Source: a bacterium
GTDB lineage: Bacteria; Verrucomicrobiota; Verrucomicrobiia; Verrucomicrobiales; Akkermansiaceae
NCBI GenBank assembly: GCA_018222765.1
Contig: JAAEZT010000014.1
Span: forward strand, 37,007 to 101,006
Reading direction: 5' to 3'
Length of the DNA stretch: 64,000 bases
This document shows, piece after piece, positions 10,689 through 51,113 of this stretch. A model generated the notes under the pieces. It made no database searches. It was not told the origin of the DNA and worked only from the letters and a program-made list of their open reading frames with translations. The position numbers and the translations under genes are program-made. Position 1 is the first letter of the stretch, and the number at the start of each line of letters is the position of its first letter.

Positions 10689-12947
10689 CTAGCGATGCAA
10701 TTCCAAGAGTCGGTTTGATTCCTCGATGAGGAAATCGATTTCCATGAATGGGTCGGCTGAGACGTCGGCCCAGAGAACGCGGCCTTTTCCATCGACGAGG
10801 AAGGTTCCGTGGAGAGGCTGGTTTTCGAAGTCATCGTGTGCAGAGAATCTCTTGAAAATCTCTTTTTGATGATCGGAAACGATGGGGAAGGGAATCTTGC
10901 CTTTTTCGTAGTTGTCTTGGCTCTTCTTGAGGTCGGCGACCTTGTCGGTAGAAATGGCCAGGATGGGGAGCTTGGCCTTTTCAAAGTCCGAGTAGCGGTC
11001 GGCCATGGCGGTGAGTTGTTCGGTGCAGTGAAGGCATCCAGCGCCGAGGTAAAAGACGAGGATGTGCGGTTTACCGGCCATGCTGGAGCTGGAGATTGTT
11101 TTTTGGTGTTGGTCCGGAAGGCTGAAGGCGGGCGCGGCGGGAGGAGTCCAGTGCAGCGGACCGAGGGTGCCGAGATCGGGACGTGGGAGAAGATCGTCGG
11201 CGGGCTTGTGCGCTTGACGCCAGTCGGCAGGGTAGCCGAACTCCTTGGCAATTGGCGCGAGCCGTGCGAAGGGACGGGACTTGAGGTCAACCTCGGAAGA
11301 AAAGACGCGAAGCTTCTCGAATCCTTTTTTTGCATCTTCCTTTTTGCCCATTCGGTGGAAAAGGGTAATGGCGTTGGCGAGTGGAACGGTTTCCTTTTTA
11401 TCGCTATCGAGAACGCTCCGGGCGGTTTTCTCGGCCGCCTCCTTGTTACCGAATTGGAGTTCGCGGAGCGCCTTAAAGGTGGCGGAGCCCGAGGATTTGG
11501 CGAGTGACTCCTTGGCGGTCTTTTCGTCGTCGTTCATTTCGGCGAGATAACCAAGGAGTTCGGTGCAATCTTTTTCGAGCGACCCGATGAGGCGGTTGTA
11601 TTTCTTTCCGGCTGCTGCGACGGCTTTCTTGATTTCGTCTTCCTTCTTTTTCTCTTTGGCGGCCTTCTCTTTGGCCTTATCTTCATCAGCTTGCTTTTTT
11701 GCTCTTTCGTCGGCGAGCAGGTCTTCGACTTGATTAATGATCTGCATCAACTCCACGCGATGGCCGAGGTGGAAATTGGCGATGCCAATTAGTCTGAGCC
11801 GGGCGCGATCATGAGTCGGTTGCTTGGACAGGGTTTCGAGCCACTGGGTGTTTGAGAGCTCGAAGGTCTCCTCCCAGAGTTCAAATTTTTCAAGAGTTTT
11901 GAGGAGATTGTTGCGACCGTATTTGTAGGAATGTGAGCGGCCCTCCAGCGTGTTGAGTTTCGGGTGACGCGGGTTGGCGAGGAGAGACTTGGCCATTGCT
12001 ACGGCGGCGGGGGCATCACCAAGGTGACCGAAGTTGCGCGCGAGCCATTCGTTGTTGTGCGCGTAGTTGTGGATTTGGTCGGGGATGAGGAAATGCTTGG
12101 CCATGTGTGCGTGGTCAACTCGGGCGGATGCCTGTTGGCTGAAGGCGGCATCGTGATAGCGCTTGGCTTTGGAGTAGATGTGTCCGGGCATGTGCCACAT
12201 GTGGGCGATGCTTGGGGCGGTTTTTCCGAGACGGGCGGCGGAATCGAGCGCTTGCTCATGCTTGCGGTTGTCCCAAAGGTGGATGGCGTAGTGGTGGGCG
12301 GGGTGATAAGGATTTTTGGCAAAGATTTGCTCAAGAATAGCGTCGAGTCCGAGGTAACTACTGATGGGAACACCTTTGCGGTTGAACTGCCAGCGGCGGC
12401 AAACGAAGAGGGCCTTGGCTTCGATATCGTCGGGGTGGTTCAGAATGAGGTCTTCGTAAGCGCGGATGAAATTTTTAATGCGCTTTTTGGAGTCCTTCTC
12501 CTTTTTGTCATCGTGATAGGCAATTTCGGCGTCGAGATAGGCGCGTTCGTGAATGGTGATTTTTAAGTTTTCTTTTTTGAGGAGTTCGGTTGCCTTGGCG
12601 ATGAATTCCTTGGCACGTTTCTCGTTAGAGTAATTGGCCTGAGAGAGTCCCCAGTAGGCCATGGCGCAATTGGGATCGTGAGCAAGGATCTTACGGAAGG
12701 AACGTTCTGCTTCGTAGTACCAAAATCCGTGAAGCTGACCAAGGCCCTGGTTGAAGTAGGCCTGCCCTTGACTCCAGGAGCTTGTGATGGGGAGGTGGAC
12801 CTTTCCAGTGTCTCCGATGAGCGGGGACGCCTGGCGTGGTCCCTCGTTGAAGGCGTGGCCCTGATGGGAATGTCCTTCTTTGGTCTCAGTGGGTTCTTCA
12901 CCAGACAGAAGGGAGCAGAACAGGGGTAAAATCCAAAATCGTTTCAT
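10689..12947 (-). CDS. Secreted TPR-like helical protein fused to a C-terminal AhpC/TSA-redoxin (thioredoxin-fold, CxxC) domain
   Basis: The listed ORF extends to 13076. The internal ATG at 12947 begins MKRFWILPLFCSLLSG, a clear signal peptide. The C-terminus reads HILVFYLGAGCLHCTEQL...ISTDKVADLKK...FPIVSDHQKEIFKRF...HGTFLVDGKGRVLW, a redoxin fold. A Lys/Glu-rich coiled segment lies in the middle. Confidence 0.75.
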   Translation of the reverse strand: MKRFWILPLFCSLLSGEEPTETKEGHSHQGHAFNEGPRQASPLIGDTGKVHLPITSSWSQGQAYFNQGLGQLHGFWYYEAERSFRKILAHDPNCAMAYWGLSQANYSNEKRAKEFIAKATELLKKENLKITIHERAYLDAEIAYHDDKKEKDSKKRIKNFIRAYEDLILNHPDDIEAKALFVCRRWQFNRKGVPISSYLGLDAILEQIFAKNPYHPAHHYAIHLWDNRKHEQALDSAARLGKTAPSIAHMWHMPGHIYSKAKRYHDAAFSQQASARVDHAHMAKHFLIPDQIHNYAHNNEWLARNFGHLGDAPAAVAMAKSLLANPRHPKLNTLEGRSHSYKYGRNNLLKTLEKFELWEETFELSNTQWLETLSKQPTHDRARLRLIGIANFHLGHRVELMQIINQVEDLLADERAKKQADEDKAKEKAAKEKKKEDEIKKAVAAAGKKYNRLIGSLEKDCTELLGYLAEMNDDEKTAKESLAKSSGSATFKALRELQFGNKEAAEKTARSVLDSDKKETVPLANAITLFHRMGKKEDAKKGFEKLRVFSSEVDLKSRPFARLAPIAKEFGYPADWRQAHKPADDLLPRPDLGTLGPLHWTPPAAPAFSLPDQHQKTISSSSMAGKPHILVFYLGAGCLHCTEQLTAMADRYSDFEKAKLPILAISTDKVADLKKSQDNYEKGKIPFPIVSDHQKEIFKRFSAHDDFENQPLHGTFLVDGKGRVLWADVSADPFMEIDFLIEESNRLLELHR

Positions 12948-13180
12948 GGTAGGTGTTCGCAGAGTCGGAATACGCGTTGGGTGTGACTTCTTTTGCATCA
13001 GATGGCGATCTTCTTTCTTCGAAGTCGCGTCTCGGTCTTCATTCGAGGGTGTCATCTTCCCTACGTCAGCTGGCATGACTAAAGCATTTGGCTGCTGGAG
13101 GCGGAGTTTTAGGAACGAGGTTGTAACACAGCAAGTTTGAATGGGTCTTCGCCCGTGCGGAAAAGCGACTTGAGTTGGGT

Positions 13181-14548
13181 TTAAGGCTTAAACCTTGGAT
13201 TCTTCTCGGTGGGAATAGGAGCCTTGGTTTTCTTTTGCCAGGCCTTGAGTTCGGCGAGGAGTTCTTTGACTTTCTCGGGCTTCTTGGAAGCAAGGTTGTT
13301 CTTTTCGGAGCGGTCGTTCTTGAGGTTGTAGAGCTCAGCAATGTTGTCTTCGAAGTATTCGATCAATTTCCAATCGCCCTTCCTGATCACGCCGCAGGGT
13401 GTGGTGCGAAAGTGTTGGGAGGCCGAACCGTTCCCGGCGCTATACCCCTGGAGGTAGGCGGGGAAGTGCCAGAAGAGCGGGCGCTCGGGGAGAGCTTCTC
13501 CTTTAAGCGCAGGAAGGATGTTGAGTCCGTCGAGAGAGGAGTTGGGTTCTCCACCGGCTAGTGAAACAAGTGAGGGGAAGAGGTCGACTTGATGAATCGG
13601 AGTGTCATTGGTCGTTCCTGCGTTGATCATACCGGGGAATCGGGCAATGAACGGTTCGCGGATTCCTCCTTCGTAATACATTCCCTTCGATCCCCGTAAG
13701 GGATCGGCGGTGGAGATCGCTCCGTGCGGACCGTTGTCGGAGGTGAAAATGACGAGGGTGTTGTTGGCGATCTTGAGATCATCGAGCGTCTTGAGGACCT
13801 GCCCGATGGCGGTGTCCATGGATTCGATCATGCCGGCGTAGGCCGGGTTGTTGTGGGACTTGTTGCCGGTCTTTTTGGTGTACTTGGCTTTGAGTTCCTT
13901 GGTCGACTGAATGGGGGTGTGCACCGAGTAGAAGGGGAAGTAGACGAAGAAGGGGGACTTGGTGTTCTCCCTGATCCAGCCCGAGACATCGCGGCCGAGG
14001 CGCTCTGGGAGATGTTCTCCTTTCGGTCCGTCTTTGAGGTAGGGATTTTTGTAGGGCGAGAAGTAGGACTTGGGATGTCCCCAAGTGGTGCCGCCAAAGT
14101 TGGTGTGGAAGCCGTCCTTGGTCGGGTCTTTGGTGAGATGCCATTTGCCTGCGACGCAGGTGCGGTAGCCGCGGGCCTGGAGAGCTTCGCCGAGGGTAGT
14201 GAATTTCGGATCGAGGATAGTGGTGTTTTTGATCGGGATGAGCTTGCGGTGCTGCGCTTTGCCCCGATCGGAGTTGCCGACGGTGAAGATTCCATGACGC
14301 GGGGTGTAATGGCCGGTCATCAGGGAAGCTCGGGACGGAGCGCAATTGGCGGCCGAGGCGTAGGCTTGGGTGAAACGCATTCCTTCCTTGGCAAGGCGGT
14401 CGAGGTTGGGGGTTTCGTAGTATGTCGATCCCTGGCAGGCGAGGTCGGTGTAGCCAAGGTCATCAGCGTAGAAGAGGACAATATTGGGCGTTGAGGCACC
14501 CCAGGAATGGAGTGCAGTGATTAAAAAAAATGGGAGTTTCCACGTCAT
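13181..14548 (-). CDS. Sulfatase (formylglycine-dependent, Cys-type)
   Basis: 455 aa with a signal peptide. An N-terminal NIVLFYADDLGY block is followed by the CAPSRASLMTG sulfatase signature (C-x-P-x-R). Confidence 0.85.
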   Translation of the reverse strand: MTWKLPFFLITALHSWGASTPNIVLFYADDLGYTDLACQGSTYYETPNLDRLAKEGMRFTQAYASAANCAPSRASLMTGHYTPRHGIFTVGNSDRGKAQHRKLIPIKNTTILDPKFTTLGEALQARGYRTCVAGKWHLTKDPTKDGFHTNFGGTTWGHPKSYFSPYKNPYLKDGPKGEHLPERLGRDVSGWIRENTKSPFFVYFPFYSVHTPIQSTKELKAKYTKKTGNKSHNNPAYAGMIESMDTAIGQVLKTLDDLKIANNTLVIFTSDNGPHGAISTADPLRGSKGMYYEGGIREPFIARFPGMINAGTTNDTPIHQVDLFPSLVSLAGGEPNSSLDGLNILPALKGEALPERPLFWHFPAYLQGYSAGNGSASQHFRTTPCGVIRKGDWKLIEYFEDNIAELYNLKNDRSEKNNLASKKPEKVKELLAELKAWQKKTKAPIPTEKNPRFKP

Positions 14549-18175: not shown

Positions 18176-18258
18176 GCCGCCGTGGCGGAATTGGTAGACG
18201 CTGTGGATTTAAAATCCATTGATCCTAGATCGTGCGGGTTCGATCCCCGCCGGCGGTA
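18176..18258 (+). tRNA. tRNA-Leu (anticodon UAA), class II with a long variable arm
   Basis: Hand-folded. Acceptor is GCCGCCG/CGGCGGT (G1-U72 wobble). D arm is GCG-GAATTGGTAGA-CGC. Anticodon stem is GTGGA/TCCAT with loop TT-TAA-AA. Variable arm is GATC-CTA-GATC. T arm is GCGGG-TTCGATC-CCCGC, discriminator A. No CCA is encoded. Confidence 0.9.
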
Positions 18259-18301: not shown

Positions 18302-18823
18302 CTATCGGCTCAGTTCGGCAATTTTTTCGAGAAGTTCTTCGGCTTGCTTTGCAGCATCGACTTTGGGGAAGTGGTGGACGAGCTTCCCGTTGCGGAAGAG
18401 AAAGGTTTCCCGGTTAGGTTTTTTATCGGGGTGGACGACCTTGAAGGCATCACAAATTTTTCCATCGGTGTCCGCGAGGAGCGGGAAGGTGAGCCGTGAT
18501 TTGTCAGAAAAGGCTTTTTGGTCTGCCACGGTGTCCATGGAGACTCCGATGACTTGGATCTTTTTTTCGGTGAAAGTGGGCGCAGCAGCCTGCAGCGATT
18601 TGACTTGTTTCGCTCACCAGAATGTATTCGCGACCGGATAAAAGAAGATAGCGGCCCAAGGCCCGCTGAGGGCGTATTTGAGATCAACCAGTTGTCCGGT
18701 TTGGGCGGCGGCAGTAAGTTTGGGAGTCACCCAGCCTGCGGGGCGGGGTTCGACTTCTTCGTGGGTGGCGCAGCTTGAGAGAAGAATGGCAAGCAAGACG
18801 AGAAAGTTTGAGATGCGCATCAC
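18302..18823 (-). CDS. Bcp/PrxQ-type peroxiredoxin lipoprotein with in-frame UGA (18614..18616) at the peroxidatic Cys position; candidate selenoprotein
   Basis: ORFs 18614..18823 and 18302..18538 are in the same frame, separated by one TGA plus 25 sense codons. Read-through gives MMRISNFLVLLAILLSSC (lipobox) ...IFFYPVANTFW[UGA]AKQVKSLQAAAPTFTEKKIQVIGVSMDTVADQKAFSDKSRLTFPLLADTDG...RETFLFRNGKLV. The PxxxTxxC motif is matched with UGA at the C position. Confidence 0.65.
18580..18596 (-). promoter_or_regulatory. Candidate bacterial SECIS hairpin downstream of the peroxiredoxin UGA
   Basis: The mRNA reads GC(U)GCAG-GCUG-CUGCGC: a 6-bp stem with a bulged U and a G/U-containing tetraloop. The loop begins about 25 nt after the UGA. 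Folded by hand only. Confidence 0.35.
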
Positions 18824-19929: not shown

Positions 19930-20484
19930 ATGCCCCAATCTGAAAAAGAATCCGCCGAGGAAGACCTCCGATACGAGGCTTATATCCAAAGGTTTACTCA
20001 TTGTGAGCCGGACTTGCGGCGTTTTATCCGTTCCTTGCTGCCGACGTGGTCAGATGCGGACGAGGTGATGCAGCAGACCGCTATCGTGGCTTGGCGGAAA
20101 TTCGAGCAATATGATCTCGAGACGAATTTCATGAAATGGGCCTGCGTGATTGCGCGGTTTGAAGCCCTCGCTTATCGCCGGAAAATGGCGCGGGACCGGT
20201 TGGTGTTTAGAGAGGATATCTTTGATTTGATGGCGAATGAAGGTGTGGAGGAAATCGAGACCCGCCGGAAGGAGCATTCCGCATTGGAGGAATGTTTGTC
20301 GGCGATGCCGGACAAGCAACGGCAGTTTATTACTCTGGCTTATACGCCGGGAATCAAGGTGAAGGAGATGGCTGAGGAGGCCGGGAGTAGTGCGGCGGCA
20401 TTTTACATGCGGCTTAAGAGGCTGCGTCATCAGTTGATGGGATGTGTGGAAGGAAAAATCTCAGAGGCAAACCAGACCTCATGA
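19930..20484 (+). CDS. ECF-type RNA polymerase sigma-70 family factor (Rhodopirellula/Verrucomicrobium-type)
   Basis: 184 aa. Region 2 reads ADEVMQQTAIVAWRKFEQYDLETNFMKWACVIARFEALAYRR. Region 4 reads MPDKQRQFITLAYTPGIKVKEMAEEAGSSAAAFYMRLKRLR. Its stop overlaps the start of the anti-sigma gene. Confidence 0.85.
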   Translation: MPQSEKESAEEDLRYEAYIQRFTHCEPDLRRFIRSLLPTWSDADEVMQQTAIVAWRKFEQYDLETNFMKWACVIARFEALAYRRKMARDRLVFREDIFDLMANEGVEEIETRRKEHSALEECLSAMPDKQRQFITLAYTPGIKVKEMAEEAGSSAAAFYMRLKRLRHQLMGCVEGKISEANQTS

Positions 20485-22124
20485 AAAAGGATCAATTTTC
20501 CCAACTCTCGCCGGGTGAGCAGGAATGGCTCGACTCTTATCTTGATGGTGAGTTGAGCCCAGAGGACTTCGAGGCGATGCAGGATAAGATGATAGAGAGT
20601 GCGGAGTATCGAAAGATCATGCGGCGTTATCTTTCGGTCGATCACTCGCTTGAGATGTTGGAAGGCGAGACCCCGTTCGAGGTGGTACCAGAAGAGAAAG
20701 TGGTGACGAAATTTCCATCGCCGGTTCGATTGACCTTGGCTGCGGCCGTTGCCTTTTTCTTTGGTGTTCTGGGGATGTATTGGATGAACGACGATCAGCC
20801 GGAAGAAGCTGCTGAAGTGGAATCGCAAGAGACGGTTTCCCCGTCGGCGGAGGGCTTTGCGGTGGTGAGTGGATTGTTCGGGGAAGAATGGAATGAGGAT
20901 TCTTCCGGCTATGTGGAAGGCGATACTCTGGGCCCGGAGGTTTTTCGTCTCGCGTCTGGAACAGCTGAAATCAAATTTTTCTCCGGAGCCAATATGACGG
21001 TGGAGGGGCCGGCGGAGATCTTGTTGAAGTCAGCCTGGGAAGCCGAGTGTCGTGATGGTTTGGTGCGGATGCAGGTGCCTCCGGCAGCGCGTGGATTTAA
21101 GCTTCAGGCGCCGTCGACAGAGATCATTGATTTGGGAACGGAGTTTGGTCTCTCGGTGAGAGATGGGAAAGGGCAGGTCGAGGTCTTTGACGGGGAGATT
21201 TCCATTCGCCATCAGGACGAAGAGAAGCAAATTTTGGAAAAAGGTGCGGCTTTCATACTGCCGTCAGATGGGTTGGCGATTGCGACGGAGAAAGGTGGAG
21301 TGTCCTATCCCGATGCGACTAAGTTCAAAAAGATGGCGGAAGAGGAGCGCCGCAATTCGAGGGAAGTCTGGCAGGCGGAGCGCGCGGAGTTGGTGAAAGA
21401 CGATCGGTTATTGGCCTATTATTGTTTTGAGAATGCTAACGGGCTGAGCCTCGTTCCGAATTTGGCGGAGCCACGAAATCCGGAAACGGACGGAGCGATT
21501 ATTCTTGCCGAGCCAGTGACCGGGCGTTGGTCCGGAGTGCAGTCGGCGCTGGAATTCCGGCGTCCGGGATCAAGGGTGAGGGTGAACATTCCTGGAGAAT
21601 TTGAAGCCTTCACCTTTATGAGCTGGGTGCGCATCGACAGCCTCGATCGTCAGTATAATGCGCTTTTCCTTGGCGATGGTTATGAAAACGGGGAACCGCA
21701 TTGGCAGATTCGCGAAGACGGAAAACTCATGCTCTCAGTGATGGTTGATGAGGATCGGCCGCATCCGGTTTCCAAAGGCAGGCGCTTTCACCGGCTGTAT
21801 TATTCGCCTCCGATTTGGGACCTTTCCATGAGCGGGCAGTGGCTGCACCTCACGTCCGTGTATGATCCCGACCAGCGCCTGGTTTCTCACTTTGTTGACG
21901 GAGAGATGGTCTCGAGGGAGGAGATCCCCGACGAATATTTGGTGAAAACCTTGCGGATTGGAAATGGTGAGATTGGAAACTGGGGTGAGCCGTTCCGAGA
22001 GGATCCGAGTTGGGCCATTCGGAATCTCAATGGACGAATGGATGAGATTGCCATATACAGAGACGCCCTTAGTAAGAGTGAGATAGCAGAGATCTTTGCG
22101 AGGAGTCGGTCCGGTCGCCGATAG
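20481..22124 (+). CDS. FecR-like transmembrane anti-sigma factor with a C-terminal LamG domain
   Basis: The ATG at 20481 overlaps the sigma stop (ATGA); the listed ORF starts earlier at 20442. Features are an N-terminal anti-sigma segment (EQEWLDSYLDGELSPEDFEAM), one TM helix (LTLAAAVAFFFGVLGMYWM), a FecR-like beta region and a LamG-like tail (FTFMSWVRIDSLDRQYNALFLGDG...LNGRMDEIAIYRDALS). Confidence 0.75.
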   Translation: MKKDQFSQLSPGEQEWLDSYLDGELSPEDFEAMQDKMIESAEYRKIMRRYLSVDHSLEMLEGETPFEVVPEEKVVTKFPSPVRLTLAAAVAFFFGVLGMYWMNDDQPEEAAEVESQETVSPSAEGFAVVSGLFGEEWNEDSSGYVEGDTLGPEVFRLASGTAEIKFFSGANMTVEGPAEILLKSAWEAECRDGLVRMQVPPAARGFKLQAPSTEIIDLGTEFGLSVRDGKGQVEVFDGEISIRHQDEEKQILEKGAAFILPSDGLAIATEKGGVSYPDATKFKKMAEEERRNSREVWQAERAELVKDDRLLAYYCFENANGLSLVPNLAEPRNPETDGAIILAEPVTGRWSGVQSALEFRRPGSRVRVNIPGEFEAFTFMSWVRIDSLDRQYNALFLGDGYENGEPHWQIREDGKLMLSVMVDEDRPHPVSKGRRFHRLYYSPPIWDLSMSGQWLHLTSVYDPDQRLVSHFVDGEMVSREEIPDEYLVKTLRIGNGEIGNWGEPFREDPSWAIRNLNGRMDEIAIYRDALSKSEIAEIFARSRSGRR

Positions 22125-22390
22125 GACGGGGCTTGGGAAGATTTCACTGCTGGCCGGTTACTTGAGATCGAGACGAGAAAATTTTAAATTTGGGGGGAAC
22201 ACATTACTGATTCTGCGGATTCAACGATGGGAAACGGCCTTTCTCTCCCCTCCGGCCCCCTCGCCGCAAGCGGGCCTGAGCTCCGCTTTTTAAACAATTA
22301 TCTGGGAGGTAGGCGAGGTTGTTAGCGTTGTTTTTTCGGCAAAAGGCCTCGCCTACATTTACCTCCACGAATATAAAAAACACCGCAATA

Positions 22391-24703
22391 ATGAACTCTT
22401 CATTTTCGAATAACTTCTTCTTTATCCTCTCGGCAGTGGCGATTTTCGCCTCGAATTCCACTGCCAAACTAGTCGCCTGGTATCCTCTGGACGAATCTTC
22501 GGCCGCGGCCCTACCGGTGACGGAAAATGTCTCGGGAAACGATGGTTCTTTGATTGGCTACGATGCCGACCCTGCTTTCTCCTACGTTACTCGGGGTGTT
22601 TCTTCCGCGCGTCAAAATCTCGGACTGGCGTATCAGTTTGATAAAGACAACACCATTCCGGCCGGCGGTGGATTTGATCTGGGAGCCGTGGCAGCCGTGC
22701 AGCCGACGGATCAATTTACAATTGCCTTCTTCTTTCAGCCCCAGACCTTCGATCCCTTTGATCGGTTTTTTGAGACCCTAGTGGGAAACAACAATGCACA
22801 GCAGGGGATACGCATCGACACCGGTGCTGCGGGAAACCGGGTGCGGGCCCTGGTGCGTTCGGCAGCTGCAGGCAATACCAACTTTACGCATCCGACTGTT
22901 CTGAAGAATGACGGGACCTGGTACTTCTTTGCCTTTCGCTATGATAGCACGGGGTTGGATCCCTTCCGCCTTACCTTGATTGAGATGAATAGTGACCCGG
23001 TTGACGAGGCGGCCGTTACCTTGGCAACTTCCGCCGCTCCTACTCTCAATACCGGCGCGATGTCTTTTCCTCATGAGGGAAATAGTTTAGTGGGGGTGCA
23101 GCTCCCCGGTGCCGATAACCCCAACAACTTCGGCGGCGTTATCGACGAGTTTGCGATTTTCGACAACTCCGACGGCAATGGCGTGCTTTCGGATGCGCAG
23201 CTTCTCGACGTCTTCAATTTCGGACCTTCGGGGGTGGAGTTGATTTCTTCGTTTACGACCGATGTGGCGTCTGCTTCTCCGGGAAACCCGGCGACCTTGT
23301 CGTGGGTCGTTGATGATTCTTTGGATTCGTTGGTGCTGGATGACGGGAACGGTGGAACGGTCGACCTGTTGCCTTTTACGACTGCGGGAGAAGGGTCGAC
23401 GGCAGTCACTCCGGCTGAGTCGACGACCTACACGGTGCGCGCGGTCAAGGGAGACGCGGCCAATGTTTCCACGATCAGAATTCTCGCCGGAGCGGCTCCG
23501 GAGATCGCGAGCTTTTCATCATCAGATGGTTTAATTTCCCCGGGATCATCGGTCGATCTGACTTGGTCGGTGGCTGGGGCCGATTCGCTGAGCCTCGATC
23601 CCGATGGTGTTGATGTTACCGCTACTACAACCATCAATCTGACCCCGGTGGAAACGACGAACTATGTTCTCAGGGCGACCAATGGTTTCGGGACCTCGAC
23701 AGCAATGGTGTCGGTCGAGGTGATTGACGGCCCGGTGCCCGTGCATCGCTACGTCTCTTCAATCCTGGGCGAGGTTAATGAAAGCATTTGGAATGATTTG
23801 GTGGGGGATCGGGATTGGGGTTTTACTGGAGGATTACTTGGTGATCCGCTGAACCCGCCGAGTGCCAATACCAATATTGTGGTCCCGTATACCACTGTCC
23901 TTACCGATGGATCAAACGGAGCAAGTGCGGGGACCTTCCAGTATAACCAATTTTCGGCAGAAATTTGGTTCCGTCCGGGAGAGCTGACCGCTGATCACCA
24001 GGTGCTTTTTGAGACAGGGGGTGGACAGAATGGGCTTGGTGCCTTGATTACGGATACGAATATTCGATTGATTGGAAGCACCCTGAATGTGCGAAATCTC
24101 GACGTGACCATTTCCACGGTCGGTCTGAATTTGGCGGACTTCATTCAGTTGGTGATCACCAACGATGCGGATGCCGATCTGTTCACGGCATCCTTGCGCG
24201 ACACCTTCGGGAATGTTCGTTCGGTGAGCGAGGCTACGGATGTTACCGTTGGTGGAAATGGTGCGGGCCTCTTTACCTGGGCGTCGATCAATCTGGGGGC
24301 TTCTCCAAGTGATCTCGGTGGGCGGACCGAACTGCCGGACGCCTCGCCGGCGGGCTTGACCGGATTTTCCGGTGAGATCGGCATCGTGAATATTTATGAC
24401 CAGGTCCTCGACGACACAGCGATCGGCGAAGCCTTTGATCGGGTAGCGACAATTGGGCAGGCTCCGGATGGATTGGCGGTGACAGCGATTTCGTTTGATG
24501 ATGATACGAACCAGCTCACTCTCACATGGAACTCGATCAATGGGCAATCATACCTCGTCGAGTTTTCGTCGTCGATGGAGGATGAGACGTGGTTTGAGCT
24601 GGATGATCCGATTGTTGCTGATAGCGATGAGACAACTCAAGTCTTCGGACTCCCCCCGAACCTCAGCAAATTGTTTTTCAGGGTGGTTATTGCTACGCCG
24701 TAG
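22391..24703 (+). CDS. Secreted multi-domain protein: LamG, two Ig-like repeats, LamG, and the recurrent C-terminal module
   Basis: The ATG at 22391 gives signal peptide MNSSFSNNFFFILSAVAIFASNSTA. The N-terminal LamG is a clear paralogue of the one at 55937.. (DQFTIAFFFQP...GIRIDTGAAGNRVRALVR...GTWYFFAFRYDS...IDEFAIFDN). There are two ~85-aa repeats (..ATLSWVV.. and ..VDLTWSV..). The tail reads ...LTLTWNSINGQSYLVEFSSSMEDETW...KLFFRVVIATP. Confidence 0.75.
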   Translation: MNSSFSNNFFFILSAVAIFASNSTAKLVAWYPLDESSAAALPVTENVSGNDGSLIGYDADPAFSYVTRGVSSARQNLGLAYQFDKDNTIPAGGGFDLGAVAAVQPTDQFTIAFFFQPQTFDPFDRFFETLVGNNNAQQGIRIDTGAAGNRVRALVRSAAAGNTNFTHPTVLKNDGTWYFFAFRYDSTGLDPFRLTLIEMNSDPVDEAAVTLATSAAPTLNTGAMSFPHEGNSLVGVQLPGADNPNNFGGVIDEFAIFDNSDGNGVLSDAQLLDVFNFGPSGVELISSFTTDVASASPGNPATLSWVVDDSLDSLVLDDGNGGTVDLLPFTTAGEGSTAVTPAESTTYTVRAVKGDAANVSTIRILAGAAPEIASFSSSDGLISPGSSVDLTWSVAGADSLSLDPDGVDVTATTTINLTPVETTNYVLRATNGFGTSTAMVSVEVIDGPVPVHRYVSSILGEVNESIWNDLVGDRDWGFTGGLLGDPLNPPSANTNIVVPYTTVLTDGSNGASAGTFQYNQFSAEIWFRPGELTADHQVLFETGGGQNGLGALITDTNIRLIGSTLNVRNLDVTISTVGLNLADFIQLVITNDADADLFTASLRDTFGNVRSVSEATDVTVGGNGAGLFTWASINLGASPSDLGGRTELPDASPAGLTGFSGEIGIVNIYDQVLDDTAIGEAFDRVATIGQAPDGLAVTAISFDDDTNQLTLTWNSINGQSYLVEFSSSMEDETWFELDDPIVADSDETTQVFGLPPNLSKLFFRVVIATP

Positions 24704-24719
24704 CACATTTCGTTTATAG

Positions 24720-25132
24720 GCTGAGATTATTCCTACCACGCCATCACTTTCTAAGCTGACGGCGGTTGTTACCTTCATTTCGATACCGCTTTTCGCAGCT
24801 CCGCAGATCACGGAATTTGTCGCGGTCAATGCGAACTCACAGACCGGGTTCCAGCGACAGTCTTCCTTTTGAAGGTGGGACACTCGTTGATTATGTCTTA
24901 GGCGGAACGCCTTCAACTAATGGAGCACTTTGCACTTTTGTGGTGAAACTAGGCGGCGGATGGGGGCTCGGTAATGGTGCAACATTCCGACGATTTGAAA
25001 AATTAGAGCACCATTTTTACCGCGATTTTGAGTCAGGAACTGACGCCTGATGGCTTGGGTCGAAAGATCACGCTGGAGATGTCGGAGGGGGTGAGTGGAT
25101 TTGGGCGGGTGAGAGTGAGCCCCAGAGAATAA
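24720..25132 (+). pseudogene. Possible decayed, internally deleted remnant of an LTD / C-terminal-module protein gene
   Basis: Three short stretches in three different frames resemble landmarks of the LTD-CotH genes. LTAVVTFISIPLFAAPQITEFVAVNANS (24756..) resembles a signal-peptide end plus LTD start (compare APQISEFVASNSEF at 55937..). ...TLVDYVLGGTPS... resembles the (E/S)YA(Y/F)G motif. ...GFGRVRVSPRE-stop (to 25132) resembles the FFRV tail. No intact ORF exists. Confidence 0.3.
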
Positions 25133-25253
25133 GTCTCCAGGCGAGAGCGGCGCTTTATATCAATTGTTTCAAAATTGTTCCATGAATTTGAGTCACAATC
25201 TTGCCACATAATATTAGGCGCGGAAATTCGCGAGTGGCTCTACACGTGCTGAC

Positions 25254-33566: not shown

Positions 33567-35006
33567 CTATCGATCCCGCCTCTTGGTCTCTTTGTAGATT
33601 TTCTGGAATCCGGGGTATTTTTTCCATTCTGCAAAACGTTTTTGGTAGCGCTTGTCGGAGGTCCAGAATTTGGGTTGGGGGACGGAGTCGGGATCGAAGT
33701 CCTCGGGATAGTCTTTGCCAGCGATGCTGTCTTCGACAGATTGATACCACTTGAGGTAGTGGACGGTCATCTTTTGGAATTGTTCTGTTGATTCTTTGGA
33801 GATGTCCTTGGTTTCACCGGGGTCGGTGGCGAGATCGTAGAGGGCGAATGTATTCTTCTGCACGTTCGAGGCGACCAACTTGAAGTTATTGTCGACGAGA
33901 GCTCCTTTGGTCTGGTAGCGGAAAGGGATGGCGTTTTCGCGTCTTTTGAGATCCTTGGTGAAGAGAGCTTTGAGTGATTCTCCGTCGACGGGTTTGAGAA
34001 AGCTATCTTGGGGAAGTTCGAGGAGGTCTGCGATGGTTGGGAAGATATCCATTGTGGAAGAGGGGTAGGAAGTGATGCGGGGTTTGATGCCGGAGGGCCA
34101 TTCGAGGATGGCGGGGACGCGTAGGCCGCCTTCGTAAACAGTGCCTTTGTTGCCACGGAGATTACCCACGGTGGTGGGCTTGATTTTTGGGAGGCCTCCA
34201 TTGTCGCTGCAAAACCAGACCAGAGTGTCGTCGGCTATTTTGAGATCGCGGAGGGTCTTGCGGAGGACCCCGACACTGCGGTCGAAGGCGACGAGCTCGG
34301 CGTAGTGTTTCTGGCTATTTTTATCGAGATCCTTAAAGGGTGCGATGTCTTCCACGCTTGCTTCGAATGGGGAGTGTGGCGATCCATCCCAGATTACAGC
34401 GAGGAAGGGCTTCTCGGCATCCTTTTGTTTTTTGATGAAGGAGAGGGCTTGGTTGACGATGATCTCAGACGAGTCGCCTTTGAATTGATGCACACCCTGG
34501 GCCGAGCCCATAAGCGGATCGAGATCGAAGAAGTTGGTCACGGTCATCCAAGTCTCGAATCCAAACCCTTTGGGGCCGTAGGGATCCTCGTCTAGAATGG
34601 GAGCCCCGGGACCACGAAGGCCGTTGAGGTGCCACTTTCCGAAGTGGCCGGTGGCGTAGCCTGCTTGCTTGAGAGCGGAGGCGATGGTTTTTTCCTGAAG
34701 CCGGAGGGCGTGCCCGTGACTGGGAACGCCGGTGCGGTTGTTGGCCCGGCCGGTGAGGACGGAGGCGCGAGTCGGAGAGCATACGGGAGCCCCGGCGTAG
34801 AAGCGATCGAAGCGTAGTCCATTGGCCGCCATGGCGTCGAGGTTGGGAGTCTTGAGAAGGGGATGCTTGTAGTAGCCGGTTTGCCCCCATCCCTGATCAT
34901 CGGTCATGATGAGGATGATGTTGGGCTTTGGGCTGGTCTGCGGCGGGCTTTGAGCCCAGAGCCACGGGCTTTGGAACAGGAGAAAAAAGAGGGTGAGAAA
35001 TTTCAT
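33567..35006 (-). CDS. Sulfatase (Cys-type)
   Basis: 479 aa with a signal peptide. Blocks are PNIILIMTDDQGW and PVCSPTRASVLTG (C-x-P-x-R). Confidence 0.85.
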   Translation of the reverse strand: MKFLTLFFLLFQSPWLWAQSPPQTSPKPNIILIMTDDQGWGQTGYYKHPLLKTPNLDAMAANGLRFDRFYAGAPVCSPTRASVLTGRANNRTGVPSHGHALRLQEKTIASALKQAGYATGHFGKWHLNGLRGPGAPILDEDPYGPKGFGFETWMTVTNFFDLDPLMGSAQGVHQFKGDSSEIIVNQALSFIKKQKDAEKPFLAVIWDGSPHSPFEASVEDIAPFKDLDKNSQKHYAELVAFDRSVGVLRKTLRDLKIADDTLVWFCSDNGGLPKIKPTTVGNLRGNKGTVYEGGLRVPAILEWPSGIKPRITSYPSSTMDIFPTIADLLELPQDSFLKPVDGESLKALFTKDLKRRENAIPFRYQTKGALVDNNFKLVASNVQKNTFALYDLATDPGETKDISKESTEQFQKMTVHYLKWYQSVEDSIAGKDYPEDFDPDSVPQPKFWTSDKRYQKRFAEWKKYPGFQKIYKETKRRDR

Positions 35007-35060: not shown

Positions 35061-36581
35061 CTATCTGCCAATGCAGATCAGGTCCTGAATGGTGTGGGCA
35101 TAGGCTTTGCCATTGGCGAATGAAAGGCTGGCGCGGGAGTAGGATTTTCCGGCAAGGCCGAGGTCGTTGATGGCGACGATGGCATTTTCGTCGAGGGCTT
35201 TGGCTTTCCAGTTGATGACGTAAATCGTGCCGTTCATGACTGGCACGTAGAGGTGGTCGCCGGCGACACTGGGGGAGGGAGCTGCGACATGGCCCCAGCC
35301 ACTGCCTTTGGATCGCTTGTCTCCAAACACGACGAGGCCGCGGGAGTTCTTCATTTCGTTGGGGACGATGGTTTGAGTTTCGATCTTCTTCTTGGCGATA
35401 TCGAACCAGAGGAGTTGATCGTCTTGTCCGGGAGCTCGTGAAAGTTGAAGAGGCAGTTCGAGATACTCGACGGTGTGGGTATCGATATTGACCCGGCCCA
35501 ACAGGGGTTTCTTGTAGTGCCGGAAGTAGTTCCACTTTCCGACGAGGAGGTTGGAGGTCTGGGTGATGTTTCGACTTCCTGCTTTCTTGAGCGTTTTGGT
35601 TTCTGTCATTCGACTGCCTTTGTTCCAGGCGCACACCGGGACGTCCTTGATGATGGAAATCTGCTTGGCTATTTTTCCGGTAGCGGTATCCACGGAGAGG
35701 TGATTTGGGCCGTGGAAGAAATGCACCTGATCATTACGGATCCCAAAGCTCATCGTGGCGTTGAATTTTTCAAGAGGAAGAGTCCAGAGAGTCTTCCCGT
35801 TGTCGAGGTCGACCAGAGAAATCCCGTGGGGTTTTTCCGGTGGCCCGTGTCCGCCTCCGCGGCCGGTGACGACGACCTTGCGACCGTCGTTGAGCTTTTG
35901 AGGATTGACCGAAACACCCATGTTAATGCCGCATTCGGTGGTCCAGACAATCTTGCCGGTCTTGAAGTCGAGAGCTTGAAGCTGGGTCCACATTTCCTTT
36001 GGCGCATTGGCATACTTGTGAGGAAACTTTCCGTTTGGTTCCGGAGTATAGATTTGTCGGGTGAAGACAAATTTCCCGTCATGAAGGAAAGGAAGCCCTC
36101 GTCCAACGGTGAAGAATTCTTGTTTCCAAACCGGTTCGCCATCGATGGTGAAGCACGCGATGCCGGATGAGGCATTTGTGAAGACGACGTGTTCACCATC
36201 GGTGACGGCCGGTGGAGCGCTGCTGTCGCTGAAGCATCCGGAAAGCTTTAGGGGATGTTTGCCGATGATCCCTTTTTTCCAAAGGACCTTCCCGGTAGAG
36301 GCATCACAGCACCAAGCGATGATGTCCTTTCCGATCTCAGCATCGGATTCGAATGGCTTCAGGGTCGTGAAGAAAACTTTTCCGTTTGAAACGACCGGAG
36401 TGCTTTGGCCGGTTTCCGGAAGGGTGATTTTCCAGGCGATATTTTGATCAAGAGCGACACTCCATTTTGTTGGACCTGATTTCGGAGTTTGAAAATTTCC
36501 TCCGCCTCCACTGGCTTGCGGCCAATCATGGGCATGGAGTAGGCAGGTGCAGGCGAGAAGGGTTTGGAGAAAAATTTTCAT
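35061..36581 (-). CDS. Secreted PQQ-like beta-propeller repeat protein
   Basis: The listed ORF runs to 36836, but the ATG at 36581 begins MKIFLQTLLACTCLLHA (signal peptide). It has propeller-like repeats (...GKV(F/L)W..., ...DGKFVF..., ...NGTIYVINW...). It lies between two sulfatase genes. Confidence 0.7.
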   Translation of the reverse strand: MKIFLQTLLACTCLLHAHDWPQASGGGGNFQTPKSGPTKWSVALDQNIAWKITLPETGQSTPVVSNGKVFFTTLKPFESDAEIGKDIIAWCCDASTGKVLWKKGIIGKHPLKLSGCFSDSSAPPAVTDGEHVVFTNASSGIACFTIDGEPVWKQEFFTVGRGLPFLHDGKFVFTRQIYTPEPNGKFPHKYANAPKEMWTQLQALDFKTGKIVWTTECGINMGVSVNPQKLNDGRKVVVTGRGGGHGPPEKPHGISLVDLDNGKTLWTLPLEKFNATMSFGIRNDQVHFFHGPNHLSVDTATGKIAKQISIIKDVPVCAWNKGSRMTETKTLKKAGSRNITQTSNLLVGKWNYFRHYKKPLLGRVNIDTHTVEYLELPLQLSRAPGQDDQLLWFDIAKKKIETQTIVPNEMKNSRGLVVFGDKRSKGSGWGHVAAPSPSVAGDHLYVPVMNGTIYVINWKAKALDENAIVAINDLGLAGKSYSRASLSFANGKAYAHTIQDLICIGR

Positions 36582-36756
36582 GGAGTAGCTGAGGATTTGA
36601 ATACTCGATTCCAACGCCACCCGTATCAAGGATGTTTCCTGAGGGCTCGTCGGGGGTGAGGGTAGGTGAATGGTGGAGAAAGGTGGGTTCTGGTACGGAA
36701 TGTCGACTGTGTCGTTGACGTCTTTGGAGAAATCATTACGAGTCTCTGGTAAGAAT

Positions 36757-38232
36757 ATGAAGCAACTGATCATTCTCACTCTCTTCCTCCTGACCCGGTT
36801 GGGTGGTGCTGAATCTCCGCCGCGGCCGAATATCATTCTCCTGATGGGGGATGACCATGGCTGGGAAGAAGTGGGTTACAATGGGCATCCTTATCTGAAG
36901 ACGCCCTTTCTCGATGAGATGGCCGCCTCCGGATTGCGACTCGATAATTTCTATGCCCAACCGGTTTGCTCTCCTACCCGGGGCAATGTCCTGACTGGTC
37001 GGCATCCCAATCGTTACGGAACCTTTACTCCCGGTTGCTCGCTTCGGCCCGAGGAGATTACGGTGGCTCATCTTCTGAGCAAGGCGGGATACGGGACAGG
37101 GCATTTTGGGAAGTGGCATGTTGGCCCGGTGAAGAAAGAGTCGCCCACCAACCCAGGCGCGATGGGTTTTGATGAATGGCTTTCGCATGATAATTTCTTC
37201 GAGATGGATCCGGTCTTCTCCCGTAACGGGGGAGCGCCCAAAAAATTCTACGGCGAAAGTTCGGAAATTCTCATCGATGAAGCGATTAACTATATCGAGA
37301 AGAAGAAAAATGCGGAGGCGCCCTTCTTCACTGTCATTTGGTTTGGCTCTCCGCACGAACCGTATAGCGGATTGGAAACCGACCTGGCCCTCTATCGTGA
37401 TCTCCCCAAAGAGTTTGCACCAGGAGAGGTGAGTTTAACTTCCAACGAAACCGGGTCGCGAGTCAAGAGACCTCAGCGGGAGGTCTTGATTGAACGCTTT
37501 GCGGAGATCACTGCGATGGATCGATCGATTGGGAAATTACGTAATGCTCTCAAAACACTCGGGCTGCGGGACAATACCTTGCTATGGTATTGCGGCGATA
37601 ATGGCACGCCTCCAAGCGCCTTAACGAAGTCCCGCTTTCGTGGTGTGAAGGGAAAGGTTTACGAGAACGGGATTCGTGTTCCCGGAGTGATTGAATGGCC
37701 CAATGGGATTTCGAGGCCTCGCACTTCGAGTGTGAATTCTGTGACCTCTGATATCCTACCAACCTTGTGTGCCCTGGCTGGCGCAAAGACGCCGAAAGTG
37801 CCTTTGGATGGCGTTAATCTCGTTCCGGTTTTTAATGGAGAGATGAAAAAGCGTGGCGAAGCGATTGAGTTTTGGAACATTCGTGGAATGGGATCGGGAA
37901 AGCCTTATATCGATCCGGAGCTTCAGAAAGGAACCACTCCTTTGGTGAAGAAAATGGGAAATATCTTCACGCGTAATTTTCGGAACGATCATTACGAGGA
38001 AATCAGGGAGAAGGATTTCCTTGGAGCGCGCGCGATTTTGACGGATGATTATAAGTTGGTTATTGATGGCGGGAAGGGAACGGGGGCTGAACTCTTCGAT
38101 CTCAAGAAAGACTCCGGGGAGAAAAATAATATTGCGGTAGAGAACCCGGATGTTGTGGAGAAATTGACGAAGCAGTTGCGTGGCTGGCAGGAGAGCGTTT
38201 TGAACAGCCTGATGGGAAAGGATTATAAGTAG
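36757..38232 (+). CDS. Sulfatase (Cys-type)
   Basis: The ATG at 36757 begins MKQLIILTLFLLTRLGGA (signal peptide); the listed ORF starts upstream at 36670. Blocks are PNIILLMGDDHGW and PVCSPTRGNVLTG. Confidence 0.85.
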   Translation: MKQLIILTLFLLTRLGGAESPPRPNIILLMGDDHGWEEVGYNGHPYLKTPFLDEMAASGLRLDNFYAQPVCSPTRGNVLTGRHPNRYGTFTPGCSLRPEEITVAHLLSKAGYGTGHFGKWHVGPVKKESPTNPGAMGFDEWLSHDNFFEMDPVFSRNGGAPKKFYGESSEILIDEAINYIEKKKNAEAPFFTVIWFGSPHEPYSGLETDLALYRDLPKEFAPGEVSLTSNETGSRVKRPQREVLIERFAEITAMDRSIGKLRNALKTLGLRDNTLLWYCGDNGTPPSALTKSRFRGVKGKVYENGIRVPGVIEWPNGISRPRTSSVNSVTSDILPTLCALAGAKTPKVPLDGVNLVPVFNGEMKKRGEAIEFWNIRGMGSGKPYIDPELQKGTTPLVKKMGNIFTRNFRNDHYEEIREKDFLGARAILTDDYKLVIDGGKGTGAELFDLKKDSGEKNNIAVENPDVVEKLTKQLRGWQESVLNSLMGKDYK

Positions 38233-51002: not shown

Positions 51003-51113
51003 CGTGTGTTGTGCATCTTCTTTAACTATCGACAATGTTACAGACTTTTCTAGCGGGAATCTCGAAAAGGGCGCCCTTCTTTACTTAGGAACATTGGGAG
51101 GATAGATTGTGTC

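What the first reader, a model, noticed from the sequence alone, without database searches (positions are those of the whole stretch)
18302..18823. In-frame UGA exactly at the peroxidatic-Cys position of a peroxiredoxin lipoprotein: candidate selenoprotein split into two ORFs
Seen in the sequence:
- Minus-strand ORFs 18614..18823 and 18302..18538 share one frame (18823-18538 = 285 nt). They are separated only by a TGA (18614..18616) and 25 sense codons.
- Read-through yields one coherent Bcp/PrxQ-like sequence: lipobox LLSSC ...GPWAAIFFYPVANTFW-[UGA]-AKQVKSLQAAAPTFTEKKIQVIGVSMDTVADQKAFSDKSRLTFPLLADTDGKICDAFKVV...RETFLFRNGKLVHHF.
- A hairpin GC(U)GCAG-GCUG-CUGCGC (18580..18596) starts 17 nt after the UGA. 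It has a bulged U, and its loop begins about 25 nt downstream.
- A second UGA-at-redox-Cys gene at 53760..54155 independently supports Sec use.

Established knowledge:
- AhpC/TSA peroxiredoxins carry PxxxTxxC with the peroxidatic Cys. Here P-VAN-T-FW-[UGA] places the stop on that Cys.
- Sec-for-Cys peroxiredoxin-like proteins are a recognised bacterial selenoprotein class.
- Bacterial SECIS elements are hairpins immediately 3' of the UGA.

Inference:
- This is a Sec-decoding gene that ordinary callers would truncate or report as two fragments.
Basis: partly seen in the sequence, partly recalled or inferred. Interest (0 to 1): 0.8.

Follow-up and report, generated by a model that had tools for sequence, protein, structure and literature searches.

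The report
Selenocysteine peroxiredoxin lipoprotein, mis-annotated as fragments
The in-frame TGA is almost certainly a selenocysteine codon at the catalytic residue of an exported PrxQ-type peroxiredoxin from a marine Verrucomicrobiota bacterium. This is a real gene that public annotation truncates, but it belongs to a selenoprotein class known for about 20 years.

Summary
On the minus strand, 18823..18302 is one frame with a single TGA (18616..18614). Read through, it gives a 173-aa AhpC/TSA protein (Pfam E 5.6e-27). The TGA aligns with the peroxidatic Cys48 of Xanthomonas Bcp, giving P63-x3-T67-x2-U70 with Arg138 kept.

Nine related loci from independent assemblies (six distinct protein sequences, 76-93% identical to the window where compared) carry TGA at the same codon. 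No Cys form of this clade was found. The nearest Cys homologues are under 40% identical. Downstream of the TGA, dN/dS is 0.05-0.09 at dS above 1, so that part is translated in frame.

TGA ends 13 of 42 long ORFs in the window, so this is not code 4.

A hairpin 20-36 nt after the UGA, with loop AGGCU, fits the bacterial SECIS consensus. It is not statistically distinctive and shows no covariation.

The second gene (54155..53760) is a secreted thioredoxin-fold U-x-x-C protein. Its TGA is conserved in every relative examined, and one compensatory change supports its hairpin.

selA, selB, selD and tRNA-Sec are not in the window and could not be searched. GenBank annotates only a 97-aa C-terminal fragment.

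Verdict: a genuine Sec-peroxiredoxin, a new member of a known kind.

The parts
18302..18823 (-). Full read-through coding sequence of the Sec-peroxiredoxin: 173 codons plus a TAG stop. The start is GTG at 18823 or ATG at 18820.
   Evidence: Searches give the frame. Pfam AhpC-TSA, 94.6 bits, residues 33-150, spanning the TGA; nine other loci have the same architecture.
18770..18823 (-). Signal peptide and lipobox (MMRISNFLVLLAILL-S-S-C18). Predicted lipoprotein, hence extracytoplasmic.
   Evidence: Read from the sequence. The [LF]-S-S-C motif is kept in all orthologues. This is a match to the lipobox pattern [LVI][ASTVI][GAS]C; no signal-peptide predictor was available.
18614..18637 (-). Active-site motif P63-V-A-N-T67-F-W-U70. 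The UGA (Sec70) is at 18616..18614.
   Evidence: alignment to the X. campestris Bcp structures puts the TGA on Cys48 (Cp). TGA is invariant in 10 loci. The PxxxTxxU motif for Sec-Prx is given in PMC13188914.
18581..18597 (-). Candidate bacterial SECIS hairpin: CGCUGC-AGGCU-GC(U/A)GCG, positions 20-36 from the U of UGA.
   Evidence: There is a perfect 6-7 bp stem in L003, L005, L011 and L012 (-10.1 kcal/mol). The loop AGGCU fits the N1-G-[G|U]-N-N2 pattern and lies 22-23 nt after the UGA, within the 16-37 nt rule. It is not statistically distinctive, and no compensatory changes were seen.
18410..18412 (-). Codon for Arg138, the conserved peroxiredoxin active-site arginine.
   Evidence: query N-R-E-T-F-L aligns with E-R-S-T-F-L of Bcp. 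Invariant in the three sequences aligned, and visible in the other translations.
18452..18454 (-). Codon for Cys124, the only mature-chain cysteine and a possible resolving residue.
   Evidence: Present in all ten orthologue translations; absent from the Cys-type homologues P0003-P0008. The canonical resolving positions are not Cys: Cp+5 is Lys75, and the X. campestris Cys84 position is Ser106. The resolving role is inference only.
53760..54155 (-). Second candidate selenoprotein gene: a secreted thioredoxin-fold protein of 131 codons with U-P-M-C. The UGA is at 54008..54006.
   Evidence: about 70 truncated clusters and 7 clusters with 'W' at this position; those W residues are TGA in the DNA. 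TGA is kept in all 8 further loci (five further distinct sequences), and twice in a two-module Rubritalea protein; beta-alpha-beta-alpha-beta-beta-alpha fold, with thioredoxins and ResA as the best PDB matches.
53968..53986 (-). Candidate SECIS hairpin of the second gene: AGGUCAU-CGUGA-AUGAUCU, positions 23-41 from the U of UGA.
   Evidence: The hairpin is present after all 7 UGA sites examined. L024 changes G24-C40 to A24-U40 (compensatory) and G25.U39 to G25-C39. The loop CGUGA has G-U at positions 2-3 and starts 26 nt after the UGA.

Best explanation
The region 18823..18302 (minus strand) is a single gene for a lipoprotein-anchored, extracytoplasmic PrxQ/BCP-type peroxiredoxin. Its peroxidatic residue is selenocysteine, encoded by UGA at 18616..18614.

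Shown here:
- The single frame and the AhpC/TSA domain spanning the UGA.
- The UGA sits on the catalytic Cys column.
- The UGA is conserved in nine other loci.
- The downstream part is under purifying selection in frame.
- TGA otherwise acts as a normal stop in this genome.

Inferred mechanism:
- During translation, SelB carrying Sec-tRNA(Sec) binds the hairpin about 20-36 nt downstream (apical loop AGGCU) and inserts Sec at the UGA, in competition with RF2.
- The protein is exported through the Sec translocon, lipidated at Cys18 and anchored outside the cytoplasm.
- The Sec70 selenolate, positioned by Pro63, Thr67 and Arg138, reduces H2O2 or organic hydroperoxides and becomes a selenenic acid.
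- The canonical PrxQ resolving cysteines are absent. The enzyme is therefore recycled either through a selenenylsulfide with Cys124 or directly by an external thiol or selenol oxidoreductase.
- Speculative reductants are the secreted UxxC thioredoxin-fold selenoprotein at 54155..53760, or the CxxC Prx-like domain of the 795-aa protein at 13076..10689.
For: - Frame and sequence.
- Pfam AhpC-TSA, E 5.6e-27, residues 33-150.
- TGA aligned to Cp Cys48 and Arg138 to the active-site Arg of X. campestris Bcp.
- TGA at the same codon in L001-L006, L011, L012 and L016. These are independent ENA and JGI metagenomes and three GTDB-species MAGs labelled Verrucomicrobiaceae TMED86, Akkermansiaceae and Verrucomicrobiales NP53.
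- A DNA pattern allowing TGA, TGC or TGT at that codon found only TGA forms.
- The nearest full-length Cys homologues are 38% identical or less and carry ...DTPGC-TKQG-C.
- NG86 dN/dS downstream of the TGA is 0.052 (window against L003, dS 1.9), 0.085 and 0.080. The 25 codons between the TGA and the next ATG stay open in all ten loci and differ from L003 by both synonymous and nonsynonymous changes.
- Stop usage in 42 long ORFs is TAA 17, TGA 13, TAG 12. Long table-11 ORFs cover 89% of the window.
- The hairpin meets the published bSECIS constraints (PMC13188914).
- An independent second UGA gene has a conserved TGA, a thioredoxin fold and one compensatory change in its hairpin.
- Sec-Prx with TxxU is an established family: PMC1088965, PMC2398784.
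Against: - No selA, selB or selD was found among about 40 window ORFs. No tRNA-Sec was found in the window or in 12 related loci. The rest of the genome could not be searched, so the machinery is unverified.
- Rfam gives no SECIS hit.
- The gene-1 hairpin has no covariation. It is weak in L002 (-4.3 kcal/mol), its folding z-scores are insignificant, and 5-13% of random TGAs in the window have a comparable hairpin.
- One orthologue (L006) has an additional TAG in the preceding codon, and dN/dS against L004 is about 0.8-1.4. The gene can therefore decay in some lineages.
- There are no expression or selenium-incorporation data.
Confidence: 0.9

Rival explanations
1. Decaying pseudogene. A TGY-to-TGA nonsense mutation at the catalytic Cys codon inactivated an ordinary Cys-peroxiredoxin, and the rest of the frame has not yet degraded.
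For: A Cys codon is one substitution from TGA. One relative (L006, MAG NP53) has a second stop (TGG to TAG) immediately upstream and elevated dN/dS.
Against: The same TGA is present in 10 loci spanning dS above 1. There are no other stops or frameshifts in nine of them. Downstream dN/dS is 0.05-0.09. No Cys-bearing member of the clade exists in three collections. All catalytic residues are kept.
Confidence: 0.03
2. The UGA is recoded, but not as selenocysteine. Either UGA means Trp (code 4, reported in some Verrucomicrobiota), or Cys is inserted at UGA by a SelB-dependent tRNA-Sec-like tRNA(Cys).
For: UGA-to-Trp reassignment is reported for some Verrucomicrobiota (abstract of PMC13462651). Some metagenome pipelines translated the second gene with W at the TGA. 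SelB-dependent Cys insertion at UGA has been described in other phyla; this is from my own knowledge and was not checked here.
Against: TGA terminates 13 of 42 long ORFs, and table-11 ORFs cover 89% of the window, so code 4 is excluded. Trp at the peroxidatic position would kill the enzyme. The W calls are caller artefacts, because the DNA is TGA. Cys insertion cannot be excluded without the tRNA complement, but it is rare.
Confidence: 0.04
3. A genuinely split gene. Translation stops at the UGA and a separate C-terminal polypeptide is made from a downstream start (CTG or ATG), so there are two fragments and no recoding.
For: This is how PGAP and metagenome callers annotate it: a 97-aa or 78-aa C-terminal piece, and a 69-115-aa N-terminal piece.
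Against: The codons between the TGA and the candidate restarts are conserved as coding sequence in frame. The N-terminal piece would end one residue before the catalytic residue. The C-terminal piece would lack a signal peptide and half of the thioredoxin fold. No ribosome-binding site or promoter signal was found.
Confidence: 0.02

Closest known systems
Sec-containing peroxiredoxins (Prx, PF00578/COG1225, TxxU motif). The family includes PrxU of Eubacterium acidaminophilum and the marine metagenomic Prx selenoproteins (43 in the Sargasso Sea, 253 in GOS).
   Same: AhpC/TSA domain. UGA at the peroxidatic position within PxxxTxxU. Hairpin shortly downstream of the UGA. Cys-containing homologues are widespread. 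Marine origin.
   Different: It is not an equivalog of PrxU (NCBIfam NF040737: 35.6 bits against a cut-off of 270); it is BCP/PrxQ-like instead. It carries a lipoprotein signal, an unusual T-F/P-W-U active-site turn in place of T-P-G-C, and no canonical resolving Cys. The host lineage (Akkermansiaceae/Verrucomicrobiaceae) did not turn up in the three selenoprotein literature searches run on the held library.
Bacterial BCP/PrxQ thiol peroxidases, for example X. campestris Bcp (PDB 3GKK, 5IPH) and E. coli Bcp (NCBIfam PRK09437).
   Same: Best structural and sequence relatives (E 7.5e-13). Best NCBIfam hit (61.9 bits). The same Pro, Thr and Arg catalytic residues.
   Different: The score is below the equivalog cut-off of 140. 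Sec replaces Cp. Cp+5 is Lys and the Xc-Cys84 position is Ser, so the atypical 2-Cys mechanism of BCPs cannot operate as described. The protein is exported and lipidated rather than cytoplasmic.
The E. coli fdhF SECIS and the general bacterial SECIS consensus (bSECISearch model).
   Same: A small hairpin whose apical loop has G-G or G-U in the first positions, 16-37 nt after the UGA. In the window there is an unpaired or mismatched U three pairs below the loop, reminiscent of the bulged U of fdhF. The fdhF comparison is from my own knowledge; the consensus is from PMC13188914.
   Different: The loop lies about 5 nt further from the UGA than in fdhF. There is no Rfam match. The stem is only 5-7 bp and its energy is marginal in some orthologues.
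Extracytoplasmic thioredoxin-fold UxxC selenoproteins: the Trx-like, DsbA-like and thiol:disulfide interchange families of the GOS and Sargasso surveys. This comparison is for the second gene.
   Same: A signal peptide, a beta1-UxxC-alpha1 thioredoxin fold, and marine distribution.
   Different: No Pfam or NCBIfam model reaches threshold. Whether it equals one of the GOS 'Trx-like' subfamilies could not be tested.

Membership tests
Sec-containing peroxiredoxin (Prx selenoprotein, TxxU) | AhpC/TSA thioredoxin-fold domain covering the recoded codon | tested here: met
   Pfam PF00578: 94.6 bits (cut-off 26), residues 33-150 of the read-through protein.
Sec-containing peroxiredoxin (Prx selenoprotein, TxxU) | In-frame UGA at the peroxidatic Cys of PxxxTxxC, with the active-site Arg retained | tested here: met
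   P63-x3-T67-x2-U70 aligns with P41-x3-T45-x2-C48 of X. campestris Bcp. R138 aligns with its active-site Arg.
Sec-containing peroxiredoxin (Prx selenoprotein, TxxU) | UGA conserved in orthologues, Cys in more distant homologues, and the downstream sequence under coding constraint | tested here: met
   10 of 10 loci have TGA. P0003-P0008 have Cys. dN/dS is 0.05-0.09 downstream.
Sec-containing peroxiredoxin (Prx selenoprotein, TxxU) | [quoted passage not shown] | tested here: inconclusive
   The geometry and loop rule are met in all sequences. The energy is -7.3 in the window and -10.1 in four orthologues, but -4.3 in L002. There is no covariation. The background rate among random TGAs is 5-13%. 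There is no Rfam hit.
Sec-containing peroxiredoxin (Prx selenoprotein, TxxU) | The genome encodes selA, selB, selD and tRNA-Sec | not testable with these tools
   They are absent from the 64-kb window and from the held loci.
Sec-containing peroxiredoxin (Prx selenoprotein, TxxU) | Selenium incorporated in the protein | not testable with these tools
   Requires 75Se labelling or mass spectrometry.
PrxU equivalog (NCBIfam NF040737) | Score at or above the curated cut-off of 270 bits | tested here: not met
   35.6 bits.
BCP/PrxQ thiol peroxidase (NCBIfam PRK09437; atypical 2-Cys) | Equivalog-level similarity (at least 140 bits) | tested here: not met
   61.9 bits. It is the best hit, but below the cut-off.
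BCP/PrxQ thiol peroxidase (NCBIfam PRK09437; atypical 2-Cys) | Resolving Cys at Cp+5 or at the alpha3 position (Xc Cys84) | tested here: not met
   Cp+5 is Lys75, and the Xc-Cys84 position is Ser106. Only Cys124 remains, and it aligns with the non-catalytic Xc Cys102.
Bacterial lipoprotein | N-terminal signal peptide ending in a lipobox [LVI][ASTVI][GAS]-C | tested here: met
   MMRISNFLVLLAILL-S-S-C18. S-S-C is conserved in all orthologues. This is a pattern match only; no SPase II predictor was run.

The most novel reading that the evidence does not exclude
Marine Akkermansiaceae/Verrucomicrobiaceae may run an extracytoplasmic, selenium-based peroxide-detoxifying relay. In this reading, a lipid-anchored '1-Sec' PrxQ that has lost both canonical resolving cysteines is recycled by a secreted UxxC thioredoxin-fold selenoprotein. 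That second protein belongs to a family matching no Pfam or NCBIfam model, and in Rubritalea it is duplicated into a two-Sec tandem protein. This would be a periplasmic Sec-Sec redox couple, not yet described.
Probability: 0.12. Interest if true: 0.55.

Novelty: new member of a known kind. Interest (0 to 1): 0.3.

Why it matters
The result corrects an annotation. GenBank and metagenome pipelines record this gene only as fragments, for example MBR9760552.1 and OUV16963.1 as 97-aa 'redoxin domain-containing' or 'hypothetical' proteins. They translate the companion thioredoxin-like gene as fragments, or with Trp under code 4.

It adds marine Akkermansiaceae/Verrucomicrobiaceae to the lineages with good in-silico evidence for Sec decoding.

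It also shows an exported, lipidated Sec-peroxiredoxin with an unusual T-F-W-U active site and no canonical resolving Cys. That may interest peroxiredoxin enzymologists. It does not change what is known about selenoprotein biology.

Tried and rejected
- **Rfam:** the whole window at gathering thresholds, and 18480..18680 at E up to 10, gave only tRNA-Leu and chance hits, with no SECIS family.
- **Folding z-scores:** the segments downstream of the UGA are not significant for gene 1. I therefore did not use folding energy as evidence.
- **Lower stem:** a GGUGA/UCACC stem that includes the UGA, and a GCGA/UCGC stem predicted in the window, are not conserved in the orthologues. Both were dropped.
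- **Code 4 or 25 reassignment:** rejected from stop usage and coding density.
- **Sec machinery:** a Pfam scan of 40 window ORFs and an ARAGORN scan of 12 loci found nothing. This is uninformative for a 64-kb slice.
- **Further in-frame TGA candidates:** a systematic scan of the window and all held loci returned only these two genes plus out-of-frame artefacts. The candidate at 24766..25185 has no redox motif and no support.
- **Metagenome DNA pattern:** F-Y-P-x3-T-x-W-[U/C]-x-K-Q gave 10 hits, of which 7 are chance and 3 are real, all TGA.
- **Structure prediction of the gene-1 read-through protein:** The spatial relation of Cys124 to Sec70 could not be examined.
- **Literature:** the three selenoprotein literature searches in the held library returned no paper on Sec use in Verrucomicrobiota.

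Full report
**Observation**

Reading the minus strand from 18823 gives one open frame to the TAG at 18304..18302. It is interrupted only by TGA at 18616..18614. The translation matches what was quoted. It includes the N-terminal MMRISNFLVLLAILL-S-S-C lipobox and ...FFYPVANTFW-[TGA]-AKQVKSLQAAAP...

**What the protein is**

- With the stop replaced by Cys, the 173-aa product matches Pfam AhpC-TSA (E 5.6e-27, 94.6 bits, residues 33-150) and Redoxin. The domain therefore spans the TGA.
- Against solved structures, the best matches are BCP/PrxQ proteins. In the alignment to X. campestris Bcp, the TGA falls on Cys48, the peroxidatic cysteine (FYPKDSTPGC against FYPVANTFW-U). Arg138 falls on the active-site arginine.
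- NCBIfam agrees on the type: the best hit is the Bcp model PRK09437. No equivalog cut-off is reached, and the PrxU model scores only 35.6 of 270 bits.
- The usual PrxQ resolving cysteines are missing. Cp+5 is Lys75, and the Xc-Cys84 position is Ser106. The nearest Cys-type homologues have ...DTPGC-TKQG-C.
- One cysteine, Cys124, is invariant in the Sec clade.

**Is the TGA a conserved codon or damage?**

- A protein search found two clusters called as N-terminal fragments ending exactly at ...TFW or ...TPW (P0001, P0002). It found no full-length homologue above 40% identity.
- Their contigs (L001-L003) show TGA at that codon followed by the conserved in-frame C-terminal part.
- A scan of one genome per GTDB species found three more. 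These are Verrucomicrobiaceae TMED86, an Akkermansiaceae MAG and Verrucomicrobiales NP53 (L004-L006).
- A metagenome scan used a DNA pattern that allowed TGA, TGC or TGT at the critical codon. It found three further loci, all TGA (L011, L012, L016), and seven chance hits.
- In total, 10 of 10 loci have TGA, and no Cys form of this clade was seen.
- Nei-Gojobori dN/dS for the 103 codons after the TGA is 0.052 (window against L003, dS 1.9), 0.085 and 0.080. The 25 codons before the next ATG stay open in all ten loci and show mixed synonymous and nonsynonymous change against L003. The downstream part is therefore translated in this frame, which a pseudogene or a restart at the ATG would not explain.
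- The exception is L006 (NP53). The preceding Trp codon is TAG there, and dN/dS to its nearest relative is about 0.8-1.4. That copy may be decaying, or it may carry an assembly error.

**Is TGA otherwise a stop here?**

Among 42 non-overlapping ORFs of at least 100 aa, 13 end in TGA, 17 in TAA and 12 in TAG. After the two spurious ORFs over the candidate genes are set aside, the remaining long ORFs cover 89% of the window under table 11. This excludes the UGA-to-Trp reassignment reported for some Verrucomicrobiota (PMC13462651).

**SECIS**

- Positions 20-36 after the U of UGA (18597..18581) form CGCUGC-AGGCU-GCNGCG. The stem is perfect in L003, L005, L011 and L012 (-10.1 kcal/mol).
- In the window, L004, L006 and L016 there is a U.U mismatch.
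- The hairpin is weaker in L001 and L002. The loop starts 22-23 nt after the UGA.
- The geometry fits, but I do not regard it as independent proof. There are no compensatory changes. The folding z-scores are insignificant. Rfam finds nothing. A comparable perfect-stem hairpin follows 5% of the 2213 TGA trinucleotides in the window at -7.5 kcal/mol or better, and 13% at -5 or better.

**The second gene**

- 54155..53760 (minus strand) encodes a signal peptide followed by ...TLSFYYYDG-[TGA 54008..54006]-PMCAKIKVIVNDL....
- A homologue search returned 82 clusters. Most are 72-83-aa fragments beginning at the Met after the TGA. Seven 'full-length' proteins show W at that position. Their DNA has TGA, so the W comes from callers using code 4.
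- TGA is kept in all eight further loci examined (five further distinct sequences, 58-99% identical to the window). A Rubritalea protein has two tandem modules, each with its own TGA.
- An AlphaFold model (mean pLDDT 72; 74-88 per ten-residue block over the domain) has the thioredoxin beta-alpha-beta-alpha-beta-beta-alpha topology, with U-x-x-C at the start of helix 1. Its best PDB matches are thioredoxins, ResA and TrxP.
- Its hairpin AGGUCAU-CGUGA-AUGAUCU (53986..53968, loop 26 nt after the UGA) follows all seven UGA sites. In L024 it shows a compensatory G-C to A-U change plus G.U to G-C.
- This is good independent evidence that the lineage decodes UGA as Sec. No Pfam or NCBIfam family reaches threshold for this protein.

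**Machinery and source**

- The window holds only tRNA-Leu(UAA). None of about 40 ORFs is SelA, SelB or SelD. No tRNA-Sec is present in the 12 related loci. The rest of the genome was out of reach.
- Exact-sequence look-ups tie the window to an NCBI MAG labelled 'bacterium' (sigma factor MBR9760555.1, contig of 103,552 bp). There the peroxiredoxin is annotated only as a 97-aa 'redoxin domain-containing protein', MBR9760552.1, starting at a CTG after the TGA.
- Akkermansiaceae and TMED86 entries are truncated in the same way.

**Comparison with what is known**

Sec-containing peroxiredoxins with TxxU are an established, experimentally supported family. They are among the most abundant marine selenoproteins, with 43 genes in the Sargasso Sea and 253 in GOS (PMC13188914, PMC1088965, PMC2398784).

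This gene meets the sequence-level criteria of that class. It differs in four details:
- It is BCP/PrxQ-like rather than PrxU-like.
- It has a lipoprotein signal.
- It has a T-F/P-W-U turn.
- It has no canonical resolving Cys.

It is therefore a new member of a known kind.

**Verdict**

The claimed interest is overstated, and I score it 0.3. The main residual uncertainty is the unverified Sec machinery. The most interesting open possibility is an extracytoplasmic Sec-Prx/Sec-Trx couple, which is speculative.

Noticed in passing
window 53760..54155 (-); L017, L019, L020-L024: A secreted thioredoxin-fold protein family with a conserved Y-Y-Y-x-D-[GQ]-U-x-x-C motif matches no Pfam or NCBIfam model at threshold. 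Public databases hold it as about 80-aa fragments, as code-4 translations with W at the Sec position, or (JGI) mislabelled 'YdbL (DUF1318)'. It may be an uncatalogued selenoprotein family, or one of the GOS 'Trx-like' subfamilies.
   Followed up: partly
L020 424..1131 and L021 1291..1998 (Rubritalea sp. MAG / metagenome): This is a two-module version of the same thioredoxin-like protein. Each module carries its own in-frame TGA and its own downstream hairpin, making it a candidate double selenoprotein.
   Followed up: partly
L006 (PBTU01000122.1, Verrucomicrobiales NP53), codon before the TGA: The Trp codon preceding the Sec codon is TAG (TGG to TAG). dN/dS against the nearest orthologue is about 0.8-1.4. 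This suggests recent pseudogenisation of the Sec-Prx in this MAG, or a consensus error.
   Followed up: partly
window 10689..13076 (-): A 795-aa protein has a C-terminal AhpC-TSA/Redoxin-like domain carrying G-C-L-H-C, a CxxC motif of TlpA/ResA type. It lies about 5 kb from the Sec-Prx, and the synteny is kept in L001 and L002. It is a possible extracytoplasmic reductant, but this was not tested.
   Followed up: partly
window 18176..18258 (+): tRNA-Leu(UAA) lies 44 nt beyond the stop of the Sec-Prx gene, convergent with it. The arrangement is conserved in 8 of the 9 orthologous loci, all except L003.
   Followed up: yes
window 19930..24703 (+): An ECF sigma factor is followed by two large Laminin_G_3 (LamG) proteins, the first overlapping the sigma gene by 43 nt. 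This looks like a sigma/anti-sigma-like module and is conserved in L001 and L002.
   Followed up: no
window 47181..51035 (-) and 55913..59980 (+): Two very large proteins (1284 and 1355 aa) combine CotH kinase, lamin-tail (LTD) and chitobiase C-terminal/Fn3-associated domains. A homologue also neighbours the thioredoxin-like selenoprotein gene in L022.
   Followed up: no
window 13181..14548 (-), 33567..35006 (-), 36670..38232 (+): There are three sulfatase genes. The 36670..38232 ORF overlaps the 35061..36836 PQQ-like ORF by about 170 nt on the opposite strand. Multiple sulfatases are typical of polysaccharide-degrading marine Verrucomicrobiota.
   Followed up: no
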